Source: a virus
Taxonomy: Duplodnaviria > Heunggongvirae > Uroviricota > Caudoviricetes
DNA: 14,903 nt
IMG/VR virus record: IMGVR_UViG_3300029068_000011
Location: 1 to 14,903 of that record
Strand: one strand, 5' to 3'
The notes below the pieces were generated by a model. The model ran no database searches, had not been told where the DNA came from, and was given only the letters and a program-made list of their open reading frames with translations. The position numbers and the translations under genes are program-made. Shown piece after piece: positions 7,074-11,126 of the stretch. How positions within the stretch are numbered: the stretch's first letter is position 1; every line of letters begins with the position of its first letter.

Positions 7074-7242
7074 CTTATCTATCCCCTTAACGCCGGGTGG
7101 CGGAACTAACTGCTGCACTGCAAAATTTGAATCCCGCCGTCATGTTCATACGCCTCGGGCTGGCTACTTAACCCCTGACCACTGCCTGGTAACTCGAAGT
7201 ATTGCCTGGCGTTCTGTGGGGCGGGGTGGGTGGTATGCTGGA

Positions 7243-7271
7243 ACTATAGGTAATGCCTAATTGATTGTCAA
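7243..7271 (-). promoter_or_regulatory. Leftward sigma70 promoter (pL-like): -35 TTGACA (7266-7271), 17-nt spacer, -10 TATAGT (7243-7248)
   Basis: Hexamers read directly on the minus strand. Operator-like GCCTAAT repeats overlap the spacer and abut the -35. Confidence 0.5.
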
Positions 7272-7308
7272 TAGGCTATGCCTAATGTTTTAAGCGTAAC
7301 CTAATAGG
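7246..7308. promoter_or_regulatory. Left operator cluster: ataggtaatgcctaat (7246-7261), ataggctatgcctaat (7271-7286), cctaatagg (7300-7308)
   Basis: Seen directly. The 16-mer at 7271-7286 is the exact reverse complement of attaggcatagcctat at 7911-7926 on the other side of racR. Confidence 0.5.
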
Positions 7309-7381
7309 TGATGGCGACTGGAGAAAGTGATGGGGGGGTTAAATAACGGAATCCAGGAGTTTTCCGTCAGACCATATAAGT

Positions 7382-7858
7382 TTAAGTTCCAGTTTTTGTG
7401 ATGTTCTGGCTTTTCCGTTCAGATTCTAGAGCTTTCAGATACTTACCCACTTTCATTTCCATCGCTGCTATGTAGGCGCGAACATCGTGGTCAACCCAAT
7501 CTGGTTCTGTAGCATTTCCAGATAACAGGAAAGCTACAATCGCTCTTATTTCATCAGAGGCTGCTTGATAAAGGTTGTTTATATCTAAAAGTTCACTTTT
7601 TGTATCTGGATTGGTGGGGGTTGGTATGGGGTATTCGTTAAGCCCCCAATGCTCTGGACCAACAACATCAGCAAAGAAACGCCATAATTCTGGAAGTTTA
7701 TCTTTACTTATGGAGCCTTTCTTAATCCAGTCATAGATTGATGGTGGTTGGACTTTGAAGTGGCGTGCGACCTCCGCCTTTGATTTGACGGATCCCGATG
7801 CGATTTTTTTGTTAATGGCCTGCTCTATCGCTCGGCCTAAGTCTTTACCACTAAGCAT
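7382..7858 (-). CDS. racR: Rac prophage repressor (cI-like, 158 aa)
   Basis: ORF 7382..7858 with an AGGAGA Shine-Dalgarno upstream; divergent from the cro-like ydaS. Matches recalled RacR. Confidence 0.9.
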   Translation of the reverse strand: MLSGKDLGRAIEQAINKKIASGSVKSKAEVARHFKVQPPSIYDWIKKGSISKDKLPELWRFFADVVGPEHWGLNEYPIPTPTNPDTKSELLDINNLYQAASDEIRAIVAFLLSGNATEPDWVDHDVRAYIAAMEMKVGKYLKALESERKSQNITKTGT

Positions 7859-7885
7859 TGCTTAATATTCTCCTATGCTCATTGC

Positions 7886-7953
7886 ATTAGGCAATCCCTA
7901 CTCTCATTGTATTAGGCATAGCCTATTGACATTTGTATTAGGCGTCGCCTAAT
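7886..7953. promoter_or_regulatory. Right operator cluster: attaggcaat (7886-7895), attaggcatagcctat (7911-7926), 17-bp perfect palindrome attaggcgtcgcctaat (7937-7953)
   Basis: Seen directly in the racR-ydaS divergent intergenic region. The sites overlap the -35, spacer and -10 of the rightward promoter. Confidence 0.55.
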
Positions 7954-7955
7954 AT
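7926..7955 (+). promoter_or_regulatory. Rightward sigma70 promoter (pR-like): -35 TTGACA (7926-7931), 18-nt spacer, -10 TAATAT (7950-7955)
   Basis: Hexamers read directly. ydaS GGAG Shine-Dalgarno at 7970-7973, ATG at 7982. Confidence 0.55.
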
Positions 7956-7981
7956 CTCTGTGTGTTTTTGGAGTTCATTCG

Positions 7982-8278
7982 ATGAAAAAAGAGAACTATT
8001 CATTCAAGCAAGCTTGTGCTGTTGTCGGTGGGCAAACAGCAATGGCTAGGCTTTTAGGTGTATCACCTCCAAGCGTAAATCAATGGATCAAAGGGGTACG
8101 TCAATTGCCTGCCGAGAGATGTCCAGCAATTGAACGTGCAACAAGAGGTGAGGTGCTGTGCGAAGAACTTCGTCCTGATATTGACTGGTCATATTTACGA
8201 CGTTCGGCATGTTGTTCGCAGAATATGTCAGTGAAGCAACTAAATGACAGTAACAAATCCTCATTTGATCATACCTGA
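7982..8278 (+). CDS. ydaS: Cro-like HTH DNA-binding protein (98 aa)
   Basis: ORF 7982..8278. The N-terminus QACAVVGGQTAMARLLGVSPPSVNQW is a typical helix-turn-helix. Matches recalled YdaS. Confidence 0.85.
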   Translation: MKKENYSFKQACAVVGGQTAMARLLGVSPPSVNQWIKGVRQLPAERCPAIERATRGEVLCEELRPDIDWSYLRRSACCSQNMSVKQLNDSNKSSFDHT

Positions 8279-8300
8279 AACATCAAGAGGCAAATGATTC

Positions 8301-8723
8301 ATGAAAATCAAGCATGAGCACATCGAATCGGTGTTGTTTGCCCTGGCAGCCGAAAAAGGGCAGGCATGGGTAGCCAATGCAATTACTGAAGAATATCTGC
8401 GCCAGGGGGGCGGCGAATTGCCCCTGGTTCCAGGCAAGGACTGGAACAATCAGCAGAATATCTATCACCGTTGGTTGAAAGGTGAAACGAATGCGCAAAG
8501 GGAAAAAATTCAGAAGCTGATCCCAGCAATTCTGGCAATCCTTCCGCGCGAGCTGCGTCACCGACTCTGCATCTTCGATACCCTGGAACGCCGTGCATTA
8601 CTGGCGGCGCAGGAAGCGTTAAGTACGGCAATTGATGCGCATGATGATGCAGTCCAAGCCGTTTACCGGAAAGCGCATTTCAGCGGCGGCGGTTCTCCTA
8701 GCGATTCTGTCGTAGTGCATTGA
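8301..8723 (+). CDS. ydaT: YdaT (140 aa; reported toxic on overexpression, RacR-controlled)
   Basis: ORF 8301..8723, 22 nt downstream of the ydaS stop, with an AGAGG Shine-Dalgarno. Confidence 0.85.
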   Translation: MKIKHEHIESVLFALAAEKGQAWVANAITEEYLRQGGGELPLVPGKDWNNQQNIYHRWLKGETNAQREKIQKLIPAILAILPRELRHRLCIFDTLERRALLAAQEALSTAIDAHDDAVQAVYRKAHFSGGGSPSDSVVVH

Positions 8724-8736
8724 TTGAAATTAATCG

Positions 8737-8758
8737 TACCGAACTGTTTTGTTCGGTA
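8737..8758 (+). other. Perfect 8-bp hairpin (taccgaac / tgtttt / gttcggta) immediately after the ydaT stop
   Basis: Seen directly. The downstream sequence (tctgttaaatg) is only moderately U-rich, so it is a weak terminator or attenuator candidate. Confidence 0.3.
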
Positions 8759-8767
8759 TCTGTTAAA

Positions 8768-8788
8768 TGTAACGCTGCGAGCGTTACA
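8768..8788. repeat. 21-bp perfect dyad tgtaacgct-gcg-agcgttaca, abutting the ydaU ribosome-binding site
   Basis: Seen directly. First of three related dyads (see 8960 and 9168). Confidence 0.6.
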
Positions 8789-8800
8789 AGGTGAAAACAA

Positions 8801-9589
8801 ATGGCTTCAAACTGGATAAAGCTCGAAGTTATTACGCCGGATAAGCCGGAAATATTCAGGCTTGCTGAGATTCTGAATATTGATCCAGATGCCGCATTAG
8901 GGAAAGTCATTCGCTTCTGGGCATGGGCGGATCAACAAATGATAGACGGTAACGCAGAGTGTAACGCTCGCGGCGTTACAAAAAGTGCAATAGATCGCAT
9001 CACTTTTATGGCTGGTTTTGCTGATGCGTTAATTCAGGTTGGATGGCTGGTCGAAACTAATGGTGTGTTGTCGCTTCCTAACTTTGAGCGCCATAACGGG
9101 AAAAGCTCTAAAAAACGGGCGGTTACAAACGAGAGAGTAACAAAAATACGAGAACTGAAACGAAAAGGTAACGCTGCCAGCGTTACAAAAACGGATCAAA
9201 AAGCGTTACCAGAGGAAGAGAAAGAGGAAGATATAAATACTTATCTCCCCCTAAATCCCCCTCGCCAAAAACGAGCGTCTAAAAAATTCGAACCGGAGGC
9301 TATCGAGCTGCCTGACTGGTTGCCGGAAACACTCTGGCATGAGTGGGTTCAGTTCAGGCAGGCATTGCGAAAACCGATTCGAACGGAGCAGGGCGCTAAC
9401 GGGGCGATACGGGAGCTGGAAAAATTCCGCCAGCAGGGTTTTTCACCTGAGCAGGTGATTCGACACAGCATCGCCAACGAATACCAGGGCTTGTTCGCGC
9501 CGAAAGGTGTTCGACCTGAGACGTTACTCCGACAGGTTAACACCGTCTCGTTACCGGATAGTGCGATCCCGCCAGGCTTCAGGGGGTAA
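8801..9589 (+). CDS. ydaU: Putative replication initiation protein (lambda O analogue, 262 aa)
   Basis: ORF 8801..9589 (in-frame TGA 9 nt upstream of the ATG). It sits immediately upstream of the DnaC-like ydaV and contains DNA dyad repeats in its coding sequence. Function inferred from synteny. Confidence 0.75.
   Translation: MASNWIKLEVITPDKPEIFRLAEILNIDPDAALGKVIRFWAWADQQMIDGNAECNARGVTKSAIDRITFMAGFADALIQVGWLVETNGVLSLPNFERHNGKSSKKRAVTNERVTKIRELKRKGNAASVTKTDQKALPEEEKEEDINTYLPLNPPRQKRASKKFEPEAIELPDWLPETLWHEWVQFRQALRKPIRTEQGANGAIRELEKFRQQGFSPEQVIRHSIANEYQGLFAPKGVRPETLLRQVNTVSLPDSAIPPGFRG
8960..8980. repeat. Dyad tgtaacgc-tcgcg-gcgttaca inside ydaU
   Basis: Seen directly; 8-bp perfect arms. A ggtaacgc half-site lies at 8948-8955. 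Confidence 0.6.
9168..9186. repeat. Dyad gtaacgctg-c-cagcgttac inside ydaU
   Basis: Seen directly; 9-bp perfect arms. Additional GTTACAAA(A) half-sites at about 9122, 9137 and 9202. Confidence 0.6.
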
Positions 9590-9595
9590 CTGACC

Positions 9596-10342
9596 ATGAA
9601 AAATATTGCGACAGGCGACGTTCTTGAACGTATCCGCAGACTGGCCCCGTCACATGTAACCGCGCCATTCAAGACGGTAGCGGAGTGGCGCGAGTGGCAA
9701 CTTTCCGAAGGCCAGAAACGTTGTGAGGAGATCAACCGTCAGAATCGTCAGTTGCGGGTGGAAAAAATTCTGAATCGCTCTGGCATCCAGCCATTGCACC
9801 GCAAATGCTCGTTTTCGAATTACCAGGTGCAGAACGAAGGGCAGCGATACGCGTTGAGTCAGGCGAAATCCATCGCTGATGAACTGATGACCGGGTGTAC
9901 AAATTTTGCGTTCAGCGGAAAACCTGGTACCGGGAAGAATCACTTAGCGGCAGCTATCGGGAATCGCCTGCTGAAAGACGGTCAGACAGTGATTGTGGTT
10001 ACCGTGGCTGATGTTATGAGTGCCCTCCACGCCAGCTATGACGACGGGCAGTCAGGCGAAAAATTTTTGCGGGAACTGTGCGAAGTGGATCTGCTGGTTC
10101 TTGATGAAATTGGCATTCAGCGCGAGACGAAAAACGAGCAGGTGGTACTGCACCAGATTATTGATCGACGGACAGCGTCGATGCGTAGCGTGGGAATGCT
10201 GACAAACCTGAACTATGAGGCCATGAAAACATTGCTCGGCGAGCGGATTATGGATCGCATGACCATGAACGGCGGGCGATGGGTGAATTTTAACTGGGAG
10301 AGCTGGCGTCCGAATGTCGTCCAGCCAGGAATTGCGAAGTAA
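9596..10342 (+). CDS. ydaV: DnaC/IstB-like AAA+ helicase-loader ATPase (lambda P functional analogue, 248 aa)
   Basis: ORF 9596..10342. Walker [16 protein letters not shown] and Walker B LLVLDEIG are visible in the translation. Confidence 0.9.
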
Positions 10343-10364
10343 TTTTTACCGGGAGAAAAATTTA

Positions 10365-11126
10365 ATGGAGACTGTTTTTGACGCACTGAAAGCAATGGGG
10401 AAAGCTACGTCGGTAGAACTGGCTGCGCGACTTGATATCAGTCGTGAAGAAGTGCTGAACGAGCTGTGGGAACTGAAAAAGGCTGGCTTCGTTGATAAAA
10501 GCGTATACACCTGGCGCGTGGCTGATAACAACGTTCAGCAGGAACAGCCAGAGCAGGCAGAACTGCCGGAAGAAACCACCACGGCAACAGTCGCAAAAAT
10601 TTCGGAGTGCGATTTAACTGCGACGATTGAACAACGTGGCCCACAAACGGCGGATGAACTGGCTACGTTTTTCGGCATCACATCACGCAAAGTGGCTTCA
10701 ACGCTGGCAATGGCAATCAGTAAAGGTCGTCTGATTCGCGTTAATCAGAACGGTAAATTTCGTTACTGCATGCCGGGCGATAATTTACCAGCAGAGCCGA
10801 AAGCTGCATCGGTAGCGGAAACTGATGGTAAAGCCTTTCCTCAGCCAGCCGGTGTTGCGTTACCAGTACAGGAAGCGGCAACACAGGAAGATATTAAAAC
10901 AGAAACTGTGGCGGACATTGTGCAGTCGCTGCCATCGTTTACTGAAACGCAAGCGGATGACCTGGTTTTACCATCGCTGCATATGGCAAACCGCGAACTG
11001 CGTCGGGCGAAAAATCATGTCCAGAAGTGGGAGCGAGTCTGCGCCGCGCTGCGGGAGCTGAACAAGCACCGGGATATTGTCCGACAGATTGTCGATTCCT
11101 CCAGTCGTATTGTGTCGGAAAAGTGA
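10365..11126 (+). CDS. ydaW: Putative DNA-binding prophage protein, apparently full length (253 aa)
   Basis: ORF 10314..11126; start placed at ATG 10365 ([12 protein letters not shown]...) because a GGGAGA Shine-Dalgarno lies 8 nt upstream and 10314 is inside ydaV. Two winged-helix-like segments ([19 protein letters not shown] and [20 protein letters not shown]). The gene symbol is a tentative recall. Confidence 0.65.

What the first reader, a model, noticed from the sequence alone, without database searches (positions are those of the whole stretch)
8768..9210. Three GTAACGCT...AGCGTTAC dyads plus GTTACAAA half-sites embedded in and just upstream of ydaU
Perfect dyads at 8768-8788, 8960-8980 and 9168-9186, with extra half-sites at about 8948, 9122, 9137 and 9202, lie in the 5' half of the putative initiator gene. 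The DNA repeats even show up as repeated VTK tripeptides in the protein. In lambdoid phages the origin (iterons with dyad symmetry) lies inside the O gene, so this may be the prophage origin. Alternatively, because the first dyad abuts the ydaU ribosome-binding site, they may be operator sites for autoregulation. Unlike lambda iterons they are spaced about 200 bp apart rather than in tandem, which is unusual.
Basis: partly seen in the sequence, partly recalled or inferred. Interest (0 to 1): 0.5.

Follow-up and report, generated by a model that had tools for sequence, protein, structure and literature searches.

The report
Replication origin inside prophage initiator gene
The repeated GTAACGC…GCGTTAC motifs are real and are most likely the sites where this Rac-like prophage's replication initiator binds its own gene to start DNA copying, as in phage lambda but with an uncharacterised, very widespread initiator family.

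Summary
GTAACGC occurs 10 times in the window against 1.4 expected, and 8 of the 10 lie in 8769-9209. The 19-bp dyad GTAACGC-N5-GCGTTAC occurs 3 times against 0 expected.

The sites are constrained as DNA, not as a side effect of the protein sequence:
- In 61 close relatives the arms are nearly invariant while the spacers vary, including by amino-acid changes.
- In about 55 homologues from several phyla the same 7-mer is 86 times denser in the initiator's 5' half than in the flanks.
- It occurs in different reading frames.
- It fixes synonymous codon positions (GGT at 51 of 52 homologues, against 22% elsewhere in the domain).
- When the motif changes in a lineage (GTCACGC, GTTGCGC, TGTCCGC), all clusters in that gene change together.

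The sites travel with the initiator's N-terminal winged-helix-like domain as one 494-bp cassette (8722-9215). This cassette is absent from K-12 Rac, which has the same racR, ydaS and ydaT. The downstream cluster lies in the disordered-linker coding region. It abuts a conserved purine-rich, low-GC tract, at the same position and polarity as lambda's iterons and AT-rich tract.

Best reading: an origin embedded in the initiator gene, served by YdaU (C-terminal domain like DnaT) and YdaV (DnaC-like loader). Dyad 1 may also autoregulate. No binding or replication experiment exists. This is a new member of a known kind.

The parts
8722..9215 (.). [quoted passage not shown] It is non-homologous to K-12 Rac, while both flanks are 94-98% identical to K-12.
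   Evidence: blastn of the window against K-12 aligns 7117-8721 at 97.8% and 9216-10814 at 94.2%, with nothing between (alignment). K-12 has no GTAACGC in this locus.
8769..8787 (.). Dyad 1 (GTAACGCT-GCG-AGCGTTAC). It is non-coding and ends at the ydaU ribosome-binding site. Proposed roles: a distal initiator-binding site and a possible autoregulatory site.
   Evidence: In 61 close relatives the arms are invariant in 60, while the spacer is GCG, TAC, GTG or CAC. It is the only alignable block in otherwise unalignable upstream DNA of relatives with 61-86% identity.
8949..8955 (+). Extra half-site GTAACGC, 12 bp before dyad 2. It is weak: most close relatives have GTAATGC here.
   Evidence: It lies in a 12-bp (4-codon) insertion relative to most homologues.
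8961..8979 (.). Dyad 2, called cluster A here. It lies inside the N-domain coding sequence, encodes CNARGVT in a low-confidence loop, and is the conserved distal site of the family.
   Evidence: The equivalent dyad at +148/+160 is present in almost all homologues. Codon test: GGT 51/52, AAC 52/52, GTT 49/52. The loop has low pLDDT.
9119..9146 (.). Two degenerate half-sites: GGTTACAAA at 9121-9129 and GTAACAAAA at 9138-9146 (GTTACAAAA in most relatives).
   Evidence: Relatives L086 and L088 have a near-exact or exact GCGTTAC at +334.
9168..9186 (.). Dyad 3, the core of cluster B, in the region coding for the disordered linker. Proposed origin-proximal initiator site.
   Evidence: Arms are conserved while the spacer is GCC, GGC, GAC, GCT or GTC, including non-synonymous changes. 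The linker has pLDDT below 50. Cluster B is present in all homologues carrying the GTAACGC motif.
9203..9209 (-). Terminal half-site GCGTTAC. It is always the last site and is directly followed by CCAGAG…, in a different reading frame from dyads 2 and 3.
   Evidence: The junction is conserved in L135, L131 and L148, which use other half-site sequences.
9210..9250 (+). Purine-rich, low-GC tract: (GAGGAA)n followed by GATATAAATACTTAT. Candidate DNA-unwinding element, shared with the K-12 allele.
   Evidence: This is the lowest GC (0.35) and highest A-skew of the region. Averaged over 54 homologues, the stretch just after the last half-site has GC 0.35 against about 0.57, with 80% purine. Lambda has an A/purine-rich tract at the same place. 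The GAGGAA copy number varies among relatives.
8801..9589 (+). ydaU (262 aa), the putative initiator. It has an N-terminal winged-helix-like domain (about residues 10-95), a disordered linker (about 124-175) and a DnaT-like C-terminal domain.
   Evidence: Matches phrog_2509 'replication initiation protein' at 4.7e-88. No Pfam hit. A profile of the family hits the DnaT C-terminal domain in the PDB at 5e-16. AlphaFold model. The N-domain family has 6,390 representatives at 50% identity.
9596..10342 (+). ydaV, a DnaC-like helicase loader and partner of the initiator.
   Evidence: NCBIfam PRK12377 at 6e-153 and DnaC at 6e-92. phrog_50 'DnaC-like helicase loader'.
7926..7955 (+). PydaS promoter (TTGACA-18-TAATAT). 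It is the only promoter-like site upstream, so it is the inferred source of transcription through ydaT, ydaU and the origin.
   Evidence: The same promoter is mapped experimentally in K-12 (PMC11879457). That transcription reads through into ydaU is my inference.

Best explanation
The GTAACGC half-sites are the binding sites (iterons) of the prophage's own replication initiator, YdaU, and together they form a replication origin embedded in the ydaU gene.

Proposed mechanism:
1. Dimers of YdaU's N-terminal winged-helix-like domain bind convergent half-site pairs whose half-sites are 12 bp apart.
2. The origin-proximal cluster (dyad 3 at 9168-9186, half-site at 9203-9209, and degenerate sites at 9119-9146) lies in the DNA that codes for the disordered linker. 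It nucleates an oligomeric complex.
3. That complex opens the adjacent purine-rich, low-GC tract (9210-9250).
4. YdaU's DnaT-like C-terminal domain holds the single strands. Together with YdaV, a DnaC-like loader, it brings in host DnaB helicase.
5. Dyad 2 (in the N-domain coding sequence) and dyad 1 (just before the ribosome-binding site) are distal sites about 200 bp apart. They probably join the same complex by looping or wrapping. Dyad 1 may also let YdaU damp its own expression.

What is shown: the sites exist, are constrained as DNA, co-vary with the N-domain, and sit next to a conserved easily melted tract in the lambda-like position.

What is inferred: binding by YdaU, unwinding, helicase loading, looping and autoregulation.
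For: 1. Non-random clustering.

2. Close relatives. In 61 distinct sequences the arms are nearly invariant and the spacers are free, including amino-acid-changing substitutions in dyad 3.

3. Distant relatives. In 55 loci from Pseudomonas, Xanthomonas, Ralstonia, Planctomycetota, Verrucomicrobiota and others, the 7-mer occurs 223 times in 36.7 kb of the region from -150 to +520. It occurs 17 times in 240 kb of flanks, an 86-fold difference.

4. The sites are stereotyped in position. There is a dyad at +148/+160. There is an array at +343 to +414 arranged as >><<, >>< or ><<, with 11-12 bp spacing.

5. Independence from the protein sequence:
   - The cluster B half-sites fall in frame 0 in TL-2011b and frame 1 in most others, and in all three frames in L131.
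   - Synonymous positions are fixed at the GNA..VT codons: GGT 51/52 against 22% elsewhere in the domain, and GTT 49/52 against 35%. The sample was chosen on the amino-acid motif only.

6. Covariation. Lineages with GTCACGC (L148, L131, L007), GTTGCGC (L135) or TGTCCGC (the SPN1S type) carry the new half-site in both clusters and none outside. The encoded loop residue changes N to H to C accordingly.

7. Cassette inheritance and double dissociation:
   - K-12 Rac has the same racR, ydaS and ydaT but a different ydaU N-half, no GTAACGC, and its own GTTCAAAC repeats in the linker.
   - Phage vB_EcoS-673R7 has a different immunity region but the same ydaU and all three dyads.

8. The YdaT box is (A/T)TGATT-N6-AATCAA, which is a different motif (PMC11879457).

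9. There is a conserved low-GC purine tract right after the last half-site. Lambda has its iterons at O +348 to +432, followed by an A/purine tract, at the same place and polarity (PMC7466680).

10. Protein evidence:
   - The N-domain is modelled confidently with a helix-helix-beta-hairpin core, and the weak fold matches are mostly winged-helix DNA binders.
   - The C-domain is homologous to the ssDNA-binding domain of DnaT (PMC4129139).
   - A DnaC-like loader is encoded next door.

11. The same module with the same site layout sits on a 41-kb circular extrachromosomal phage-like element of Pusillimonas.
Against: - No binding, footprint or replication experiment exists for this allele, and none was found in the held literature.
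- The Rac origin known from experiment (oriJ) was defined in K-12, whose cassette is different. Its exact map position was not retrievable. The only primers labelled 'oriJ' that I found lie inside ydaV.
- This window's origin-proximal cluster is thin compared with relatives: one dyad, one half-site and two degenerate sites.
- The purine tract also encodes a conserved acidic/basic peptide (EEKRREE). Its conservation could therefore be protein-level, and at GC 0.35 it is only moderately AT-rich.
- The codon and enrichment statistics treat related sequences as independent.
- Cluster A is missing in at least one lineage (L125), so it is not essential everywhere.
Confidence: 0.7

Rival explanations
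1. The sites are operators only. YdaU, or another prophage protein, binds the dyads to repress or road-block transcription of ydaU-ydaV, and the true origin lies elsewhere, for example in ydaV or downstream.
For: Dyad 1 abuts the ribosome-binding site and is a conserved non-coding footprint 13-23 bp before the ATG in four diverged lineages. Iteron-plasmid Rep proteins use an inverted repeat at their own gene as an autorepression operator (established knowledge, not tested here). The published 'oriJ' primers map in ydaV.
Against: Dyad 1 exists only in the enterobacterial subgroup, whereas the intragenic clusters are conserved across phyla. No sigma-70-like promoter is found in the ydaT-ydaU spacer, although that is a weak test. 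An operator-only role does not explain three things: why the array always sits in the linker-coding DNA, why it always ends at a low-GC purine tract, and why that matches the lambda origin layout. It also does not explain why the cassette boundary with K-12 falls exactly after the last half-site.
Confidence: 0.15
2. The sites bind a different regulator, such as YdaT (CII-like), YdaS (Cro-like), RacR or a host protein.
For: ydaT-like genes lie upstream of the initiator in all enterobacterial relatives that carry dyad 1. A partial YdaT box lies 30 bp upstream of dyad 1.
Against: The footprinted YdaT box, (A/T)TGATT-N6-AATCAA, is unrelated to GTAACGC. K-12 has the same racR, ydaS and ydaT at 97.8% identity but no GTAACGC. 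Phage 673R7 has a different repressor and cro but keeps all the dyads. Pseudomonas, Xanthomonas and planctomycete homologues with other neighbours keep the sites. The sites track changes in the initiator N-domain lineage.
Confidence: 0.05
3. The DNA repeats are a by-product of repeated peptide motifs (GNA…VTK) that the protein needs, or they are RNA hairpins acting on the mRNA.
For: Dyads 2 and 3 are in the same frame and encode xNAxxVTK. GNA..VT is a conserved motif of the N-domain. Dyad 1 can fold into a 9-bp RNA hairpin just before the Shine-Dalgarno sequence.
Against: Dyad 1 is non-coding. The half-site at 9203 and whole arrays in relatives are in other frames. Synonymous positions are fixed far beyond background. 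The spacers accept amino-acid changes while the arms do not change. Single and direct-repeat (>>) half-sites cannot form hairpins. The arms keep their sequence rather than just their complementarity. There is no Rfam match, and the hairpin region is not unusually stable (z = -1.4).
Confidence: 0.04

Closest known systems
Phage lambda origin (ori-lambda) inside gene O, with O and P proteins
   Same: - The origin lies in the middle of the initiator gene, in the segment between an N-terminal DNA-binding domain and a C-terminal domain.
- The binding sites are 19-bp units with internal dyad symmetry.
- A purine-rich, low-GC tract follows directly on the downstream side. Lambda has its iterons at O +348 to +432; here cluster B is at +321 to +409.
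- The extra sites add residues to the protein, as described for Stx phages (PMC7466680).
- The N-domain and its sites are exchanged as one cassette between related prophages.
- A helicase-loader gene follows.
   Different: - There is no detectable sequence relationship to lambda O (hhalign probability 0.3%; no Pfam Phage_rep_O hit).
- The site grammar is arrays of 7-bp half-sites at 11-12 bp spacing in convergent order, rather than four tandem 19-bp iterons.
- One or two distal dyads lie about 200 bp upstream.
- The C-domain is DnaT-like and the loader is DnaC-like rather than lambda P.
oriJ and YdaU-YdaV of E. coli K-12 Rac prophage
   Same: - Same locus and gene order (racR-ydaS-ydaT-ydaU-ydaV).
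- Flanks are 94-98% identical, and the C-terminal half of YdaU and all of YdaV are shared.
- K-12 also has repeats (GTTCAAAC at +393 and +426, GTTTGAAC at +449) in the linker just before the shared A-rich/CCCCCTAAATCCCCC segment.
- Rac is reported to have an origin, oriJ (PMC3945230).
   Different: - The 494-bp cassette is unrelated. The K-12 N-half is DUF1376, carries no GTAACGC, and has no dyad before the ribosome-binding site.
- oriJ has not been mapped to these repeats in any paper I could read.
Iteron-plasmid Rep proteins (for example pPS10 RepA, F RepE, R6K pi), recalled from general knowledge
   Same: A winged-helix initiator binds repeated sites next to an AT-rich unwinding element. 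An inverted repeat of the same half-site at the initiator gene serves for autorepression. Dyad 1 could play that part.
DnaT (primosomal protein I) of the PriA-PriB-DnaT replication-restart pathway
   Same: The YdaU C-terminal domain is homologous to DnaT residues 84-179, the ssDNA-binding domain (E = 5e-16 to 3.5e-15; Pfam PF17948 in homologues). The very C-terminal tail also matches.
   Different: DnaT's N-domain binds PriB (PMC4129139). In YdaU it is replaced by a sequence-specific double-strand DNA-binding domain, so targeting would be by origin sequence rather than by a stalled fork.

Membership tests
Lambdoid origin embedded in the initiator gene (ori-lambda type) | Repeated initiator-binding sequences inside the initiator gene, between the N- and C-terminal domains | tested here: met
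   Dyad 3 and the half-site at 9203, plus degenerate sites, lie in the linker-coding DNA. The same layout is seen in about 55 homologues.
Lambdoid origin embedded in the initiator gene (ori-lambda type) | AT-rich tract directly adjoining the repeats | tested here: met
   GC is 0.35 at 9200-9239. Over 54 homologues the mean GC is 0.35 against about 0.57, with 80% purine. Lambda is compared.
Lambdoid origin embedded in the initiator gene (ori-lambda type) | Four or more tandem iterons of about 19 bp | tested here: not met
   Only one full 19-bp dyad lies at the origin-proximal cluster. The other two dyads are 207 and 399 bp upstream. Relatives have half-site arrays instead.
Lambdoid origin embedded in the initiator gene (ori-lambda type) | Initiator homologous to lambda O (Pfam Phage_rep_O) | tested here: not met
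   No Pfam hit. hhalign probability is 0.3%.
Lambdoid origin embedded in the initiator gene (ori-lambda type) | Binding-site sequence and initiator N-domain co-vary and are exchanged together | tested here: met
   Cassette 8722-9215 compared with K-12. Specificity switches to GTCACGC, GTTGCGC and TGTCCGC.
Lambdoid origin embedded in the initiator gene (ori-lambda type) | Initiator binds the repeats, and the fragment replicates when initiator and loader are supplied | not testable with these tools
   Needs EMSA or footprinting and an origin-plasmid assay.
Rac prophage oriJ (K-12) | Same sequence as the K-12 origin region | tested here: not met
   The cassette is non-homologous and K-12 has no GTAACGC. 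The mapped position of oriJ was not found in the papers held.
Rep autorepression operator of iteron replicons | Inverted repeat of the iteron half-site overlapping the initiator gene's promoter | tested here: inconclusive
   An inverted repeat is present just before the ribosome-binding site and is conserved. However, no sigma-70-like promoter is found in the spacer, and that consensus scan is a weak test.
YdaT (CII-like) operators | Inverted repeat (A/T)TGATT-N6-AATCAA | tested here: not met
   The dyads are GTAACGC-N5-GCGTTAC. True YdaT boxes lie elsewhere, at 8294 and partially at 8720 (motif from PMC11879457).
DnaT C-terminal domain family (PF17948) | Sequence homology to DnaT residues 84-179 | tested here: met
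   A profile of the family matches PDB DnaT chains 6aep, 2ru8 and 9zbt at E = 5e-16 to 3.5e-15. PF17948 is annotated on homologues.
Winged-helix DNA-binding domains | Helix-turn-helix followed by a beta-hairpin wing, with a significant structural match to known members | tested here: inconclusive

The most novel reading that the evidence does not exclude
This window may expose a large initiator family with no Pfam model. A search with the N-domain finds about 6,400 representatives at 50% identity. Its 7-bp recognition half-site, GTAACGC, has stayed the same from E. coli prophages to Planctomycetota and Verrucomicrobiota.

The family's origin would be bipartite. One obligatory binding site is written into the coding sequence of the initiator's own DNA-binding domain. 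As a result, the origin specificity dictates an amino acid of that domain:
- AAC (Asn) with GTAACGC
- CAC (His) with GTCACGC
- TGC (Cys) with GTTGCGC

The initiator itself would be a DnaT whose PriB-binding domain has been replaced by an origin-reading domain. That would link phage initiation mechanistically to the replication-restart primosome.
Probability: 0.4. Interest if true: 0.65.

Novelty: new member of a known kind. Interest (0 to 1): 0.5.

Why it matters
- It gives a concrete, testable origin and recognition code for a replication module that is common in Rac-like prophages of E. coli and Shigella. The region matched 2,100 of 5,426 complete E. coli genomes, though many of those carry the K-12 allele. 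Relatives occur in phages of Pseudomonas, Xanthomonas, Ralstonia and distant phyla.
- It explains the mosaic boundary inside ydaU as an exchange of a cassette holding the DNA-binding domain together with its sites.
- It offers natural specificity variants for swap experiments.
- It suggests that a DnaT-type domain can be used for origin-directed helicase loading.
- For annotation, it shows that 'ydaU' covers two unrelated N-terminal families, and that oriJ data from K-12 cannot be transferred to this allele.

Tried and rejected
- **Peptide-repeat origin of the DNA repeats.** Rejected on the frame shifts between homologues, the fixed synonymous positions and the non-coding copy.
- **YdaT, RacR or YdaS as the binder.** Rejected on the published YdaT box and on double dissociation in K-12 and phage 673R7.
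- **RNA element.** No Rfam match and the hairpin region is not unusual.
- **Literature for a mapped oriJ or for iterons in TL-2011b, epsilon15 or phiV10-type phages.** Nothing usable was held. Potrykus 2000 is not in the library. The De Paepe 'oriJ' primers merely lie in ydaV. The other searches were empty.
- **Pfam and NCBIfam naming of the N-domain.** No hit.
- **Homology to lambda O or to the K-12 YdaU N-half.** None.
- **Fold search for a close solved relative.** Only weak winged-helix-type hits.
- **First pass at polymorphism statistics.** Counting any variable column was spoiled by one misaligned sequence. It was replaced by haplotype tables.
- **Hairpin at 8737-8758.** The scan flagged it as a minus-strand terminator, but the upstream arm differs at three positions in most close relatives (the downstream arm was not inspected).
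- **Helical phasing of the ~200-bp spacing.** The distances vary (about 198-231 bp, by my own arithmetic from the positions) and are confounded by codon-sized indels, so no claim is made.
Full report
**1. Where we are**

The window is a Rac-like lambdoid prophage of E. coli. The segment 7300-10400 is 100% identical to several complete E. coli chromosomes. There it is annotated as racR, ydaS, ydaT, a 'hypothetical' or 'phage replication initiator YdaU family' protein, and ydaV.

In window coordinates the genes are:
- racR: 7382-7858 (-)
- ydaS: 7982-8278 (+)
- ydaT: 8301-8723 (+)
- ydaU: 8801-9589 (+), 262 aa
- ydaV: 9596-10342 (+)

YdaV is a DnaC-like helicase loader. YdaU has no Pfam hit. It matches PHROG 2509 'replication initiation protein' end to end at 4.7e-88, and O-like and primosomal families over its C-terminal part.

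**2. The observation**

The three dyads are at 8769-8787, 8961-8979 and 9168-9186. Exact half-sites are at 8949-8955 and 9203-9209. Two core-only copies lie at about 9122 and 9138.

- GTAACGC occurs 10 times in 14.9 kb against 1.41 expected, and 0 of 200 shuffles reach that count. Eight of the ten lie within 441 bp.
- The 19-bp pattern GTAACGC-N5-GCGTTAC occurs 3 times against 0 expected.
- Dyad 1 is non-coding and ends at the ribosome-binding site.

One small correction: dyad 2 is perfect only over the arms TGTAACGC/GCGTTACA.

**3. Are the sites constrained as DNA?**

Close relatives. Eighty viral contigs yielded 74 full-length copies of the region, which together with the window make 61 distinct sequences. 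The haplotype tables show the classical pattern of a dimer-binding site.
- The arms of all three dyads are almost invariant.
- The spacers vary freely: dyad 1 has GCG, TAC, GTG or CAC, and dyad 3 has GCC, GGC, GAC, GCT or GTC.
- In dyad 3 the spacer changes alter amino acids, while the synonymous third positions in the arms stay fixed.
- The extra half-site at 8949 is GTAATGC in most relatives, so it is weak.

Dyad 1 is also a phylogenetic footprint. In relatives with 61-86% protein identity the upstream DNA is unalignable except for GTAACGCT-N3-RGCGTTACA, which lies 13-23 bp before the ATG. In those relatives extra small ORFs separate the ydaT-like gene from the initiator.

Distant relatives. 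The N-terminal domain (about 115 residues) occurs fused to other C-termini in several phages:
- phage TL-2011b
- Xanthomonas phage CP2
- Pseudomonas phage VW-6S
- a Vibrio phage
- Salmonella phage SPN1S

It also occurs in prophages of Pseudomonas, Ralstonia, Planctomycetota, Verrucomicrobiota, Akkermansia and others.

GCGTTAC is the most frequent 7-mer in the region -150 to +520 of nearly every one of these loci. Over 55 loci it occurs 223 times in 36.7 kb, against 17 times in 240 kb of flanks, an 86-fold difference.

The positions are stereotyped:
- Cluster A is a convergent dyad at +148/+160, often with a further half-site at +193.
- Cluster B is an array of 2-7 half-sites at +343 to +414, arranged >><<, >>< or ><<, with 12-bp spacing (11 bp between the last two).
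- The upstream dyad is peculiar to the enterobacterial subgroup.

Protein constraint cannot explain this:
- Cluster B is in frame 0 in TL-2011b and frame 1 elsewhere, and with 11-bp spacing it runs through all three frames in L131.
- Among 52 distinct homologues chosen only because they encode G-N-A, the Gly codon is GGT in 51 (background 22%). The Asn codon is AAC in 52 (background 69%). The following Val codon is GTT in 49 (background 35%).

These counts ignore relatedness, so they are not formal probabilities. The hosts range from 43% to 68% GC.

**4. Who binds?**

The sites follow the initiator's N-domain and nothing else.

- K-12 MG1655 Rac is 97.8% identical to the window from racR to the ydaT stop codon (7117-8721). 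It is 94.2% identical from 9216 onward. The 494 bp between these blocks are unrelated.
- That cassette holds dyad 1, the N-domain coding sequence and every GTAACGC site. It ends 6 bp after the last half-site.
- K-12 has no GTAACGC there. It has its own GTTCAAAC/GTTTGAAC repeats at the equivalent linker position.
- Conversely, phage vB_EcoS-673R7 has a different repressor/cro region but the same ydaT-ydaU-ydaV and all three dyads.
- YdaT's footprinted box is (A/T)TGATT-N6-AATCAA (PMC11879457), which is unrelated.

The strongest evidence is covariation. Lineages of the family that use another half-site carry it in both clusters, at the same positions, and nowhere else in the locus:
- L135 has GTTGCGC at +148, +160, +171, +193, +337, +349, +360 and +371.
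- L148 has GTCACGC at +137, +148, +160, +377, +389 and +400.
- L131 and the Vibrio phage also use GTCACGC.
- The SPN1S group has TGTCCGC at +53/+78 and at +332 to +357.

At +148 the switch changes the encoded residue: GNA becomes GHA or GCA. The DNA site therefore dictates an amino acid of the domain.

In the AlphaFold model that residue lies in a low-confidence loop (residues 49-60). The loop sits between well-modelled helices (pLDDT above 90 for most of residues 10-95). These are followed by a helix-helix-beta-hairpin unit of winged-helix type. The fold searches find no close solved relative. The weak hits are mostly winged-helix DNA binders, including a plasmid Rep initiator.

I therefore infer, but have not shown, that YdaU's N-domain binds the half-sites, as a dimer on each convergent pair.

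**5. Origin or operator?**

Cluster B lies in DNA that codes for a disordered linker (pLDDT below 50 for most of residues 124-175). In every lineage it ends with a half-site followed by CCAGAG/CTAGAG and a purine-rich, low-GC tract. In the window GC is 0.35 at 9200-9239, the minimum of the region. Averaged over 54 homologues, GC is 0.35 against about 0.57, with 80% purine, in the 30-nt windows just after the last half-site.

Lambda has the same plan. Its four iterons lie at O +348 to +432, followed at once by an A/purine-rich tract. The literature defines the lambdoid origin as iterons plus an AT-rich tract in the middle of O. It reports that two iterons next to the tract suffice for unwinding (PMC7466680).

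The K-12/window cassette boundary leaves the purine tract, the C-domain and the loader common to both alleles. This mirrors the modular exchange known for lambdoid O genes.

The C-terminal domain of YdaU is homologous to the ssDNA-binding domain of DnaT (E about 1e-15; PMC4129139).

The same module with the same site layout is found on a 41-kb circular extrachromosomal phage-like replicon of Pusillimonas.

All this favours an origin. The intragenic clusters cannot be promoter operators. An autoregulatory or road-block role for dyad 1 remains possible: no promoter-like site lies in the ydaT-ydaU spacer, and the only one upstream is PydaS at 7926-7955. Cluster A is lost in one lineage (L125) while cluster B is kept. 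I therefore treat B as the core and A and dyad 1 as auxiliary.

**6. Proposed mechanism**

1. Transcription from PydaS reads through ydaT into ydaU (inferred).
2. YdaU dimers occupy cluster B and the distal dyads and form a higher-order complex (inferred by analogy with the lambda O-some).
3. The adjoining purine tract opens.
4. The DnaT-like domain binds the single strands and, with YdaV, loads DnaB (inferred from homology).

**7. Comparison with known systems and novelty**

It works like ori-lambda, but it is not a member of the lambda O family. It is not the same element as K-12 oriJ. It differs in four ways:
- the site grammar is half-site arrays plus distal dyads;
- the N-domain family has no Pfam model (0 Pfam hits), yet about 6,400 representatives at 50% identity;
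- the C-domain is DnaT-like;
- the GTAACGC half-site is conserved across phyla.

I found no paper that describes this origin. I rate it a new member of a known kind, of moderate interest.

**8. Limits**

- Everything is computational.
- The sequence statistics are not phylogeny-corrected.
- The structural assignment is topological.
- The purine tract is also under protein constraint.
- The experimentally defined oriJ has no position I could verify. The only 'oriJ' primers I found amplify part of ydaV.

Noticed in passing
window 8720-8737 and 8294-8311: There are two YdaT-box-like inverted repeats. ATGATTCATGAAAATCAA at 8294 spans the ydaT start codon and is identical to the site footprinted in K-12 (PMC11879457). 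TTGATTGAAATTAATCGT at 8720 overlaps the ydaT stop codon, right at the left edge of the ydaU cassette. The second is conserved in close relatives, is a 4/6 match in its right half, and is absent from K-12.
   Followed up: partly
window 9211-9228: The hexamer GAGGAA (encoding Glu-Glu) directly after the last half-site varies in copy number among close relatives, with indels of 6-12 bp. This is microsatellite-like length variation inside the candidate unwinding tract and the YdaU linker.
   Followed up: partly
window 9530-9589 (YdaU residues 244-262): The extreme C-terminus (…SAIPPGFRG) matches the last 19 residues of DnaT (NCBIfam, E = 0.0034). It recurs in the otherwise diverged SPN1S-type initiators. 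It may be a conserved docking tail, with the partner unknown.
   Followed up: no
window 9853-10007 (inside ydaV): The primers that De Paepe et al. 2014 describe as 'framing oriJ' amplify this 155-bp piece of ydaV, not ydaU. The published position of oriJ therefore needs checking against the repeats in ydaU.
   Followed up: partly
L002 (K-12 MG1655) 2010-2080, that is ydaU +390 to +460: The K-12 allele (DUF1376 N-half) has its own repeats at the equivalent linker position: GTTCAAAC twice, GTTTGAAC once, and related GTTGAAG and GTCAACA. They lie just before the A-rich/CCCCCCCTAAATCCCCCCC segment shared with the window. They are candidate iterons of the classical oriJ.
   Followed up: partly
window 8737-8758: There is an inverted repeat ACCGAAC-N6-GTTCGGT in the ydaT-ydaU spacer, flagged as terminator-like on the minus strand. 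The upstream arm differs at three positions in most close relatives (the downstream arm was not inspected), so it is probably not functional.
   Followed up: partly
window 9245-9262, and K-12 L002 about 2115-2135: CCCCCTAAATCCCCC (C5-TAAAT-C5; C7-TAAAT-C7 in K-12) lies just past the mosaic junction and encodes a Pro-rich linker. It is conserved in both alleles. Its role, if any, is unknown.
   Followed up: no
window 10314-11126: The ORF after ydaV (270 aa, DUF1627 with N-terminal HTH-like hits) overlaps the end of ydaV by 29 nt. In K-12 the equivalent gene, ydaW, is shorter.
   Followed up: no
L135, L148, L131, L007, L008 and L144-L153 (related loci): These are natural specificity variants of the family. 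The half-sites are GTTGCGC, GTCACGC and TGTCCGC. In the SPN1S type the distal cluster sits at +53/+78 instead of +148/+160. L142 seems to use GTCGTC…GACGAC, and no motif was found in L143.
   Followed up: partly
L156 (Pusillimonas sp. T7-7 plasmid NC_015459.1) and L157 (E. coli plasmid CP088505.1): Two records deposited as plasmids carry this initiator with the same site layout. The 41-kb Pusillimonas one is a phage-like circular element (CII, NinB, Rha and HNH genes). It may be a phage-plasmid, or an excised prophage assembled as a circle.
   Followed up: partly
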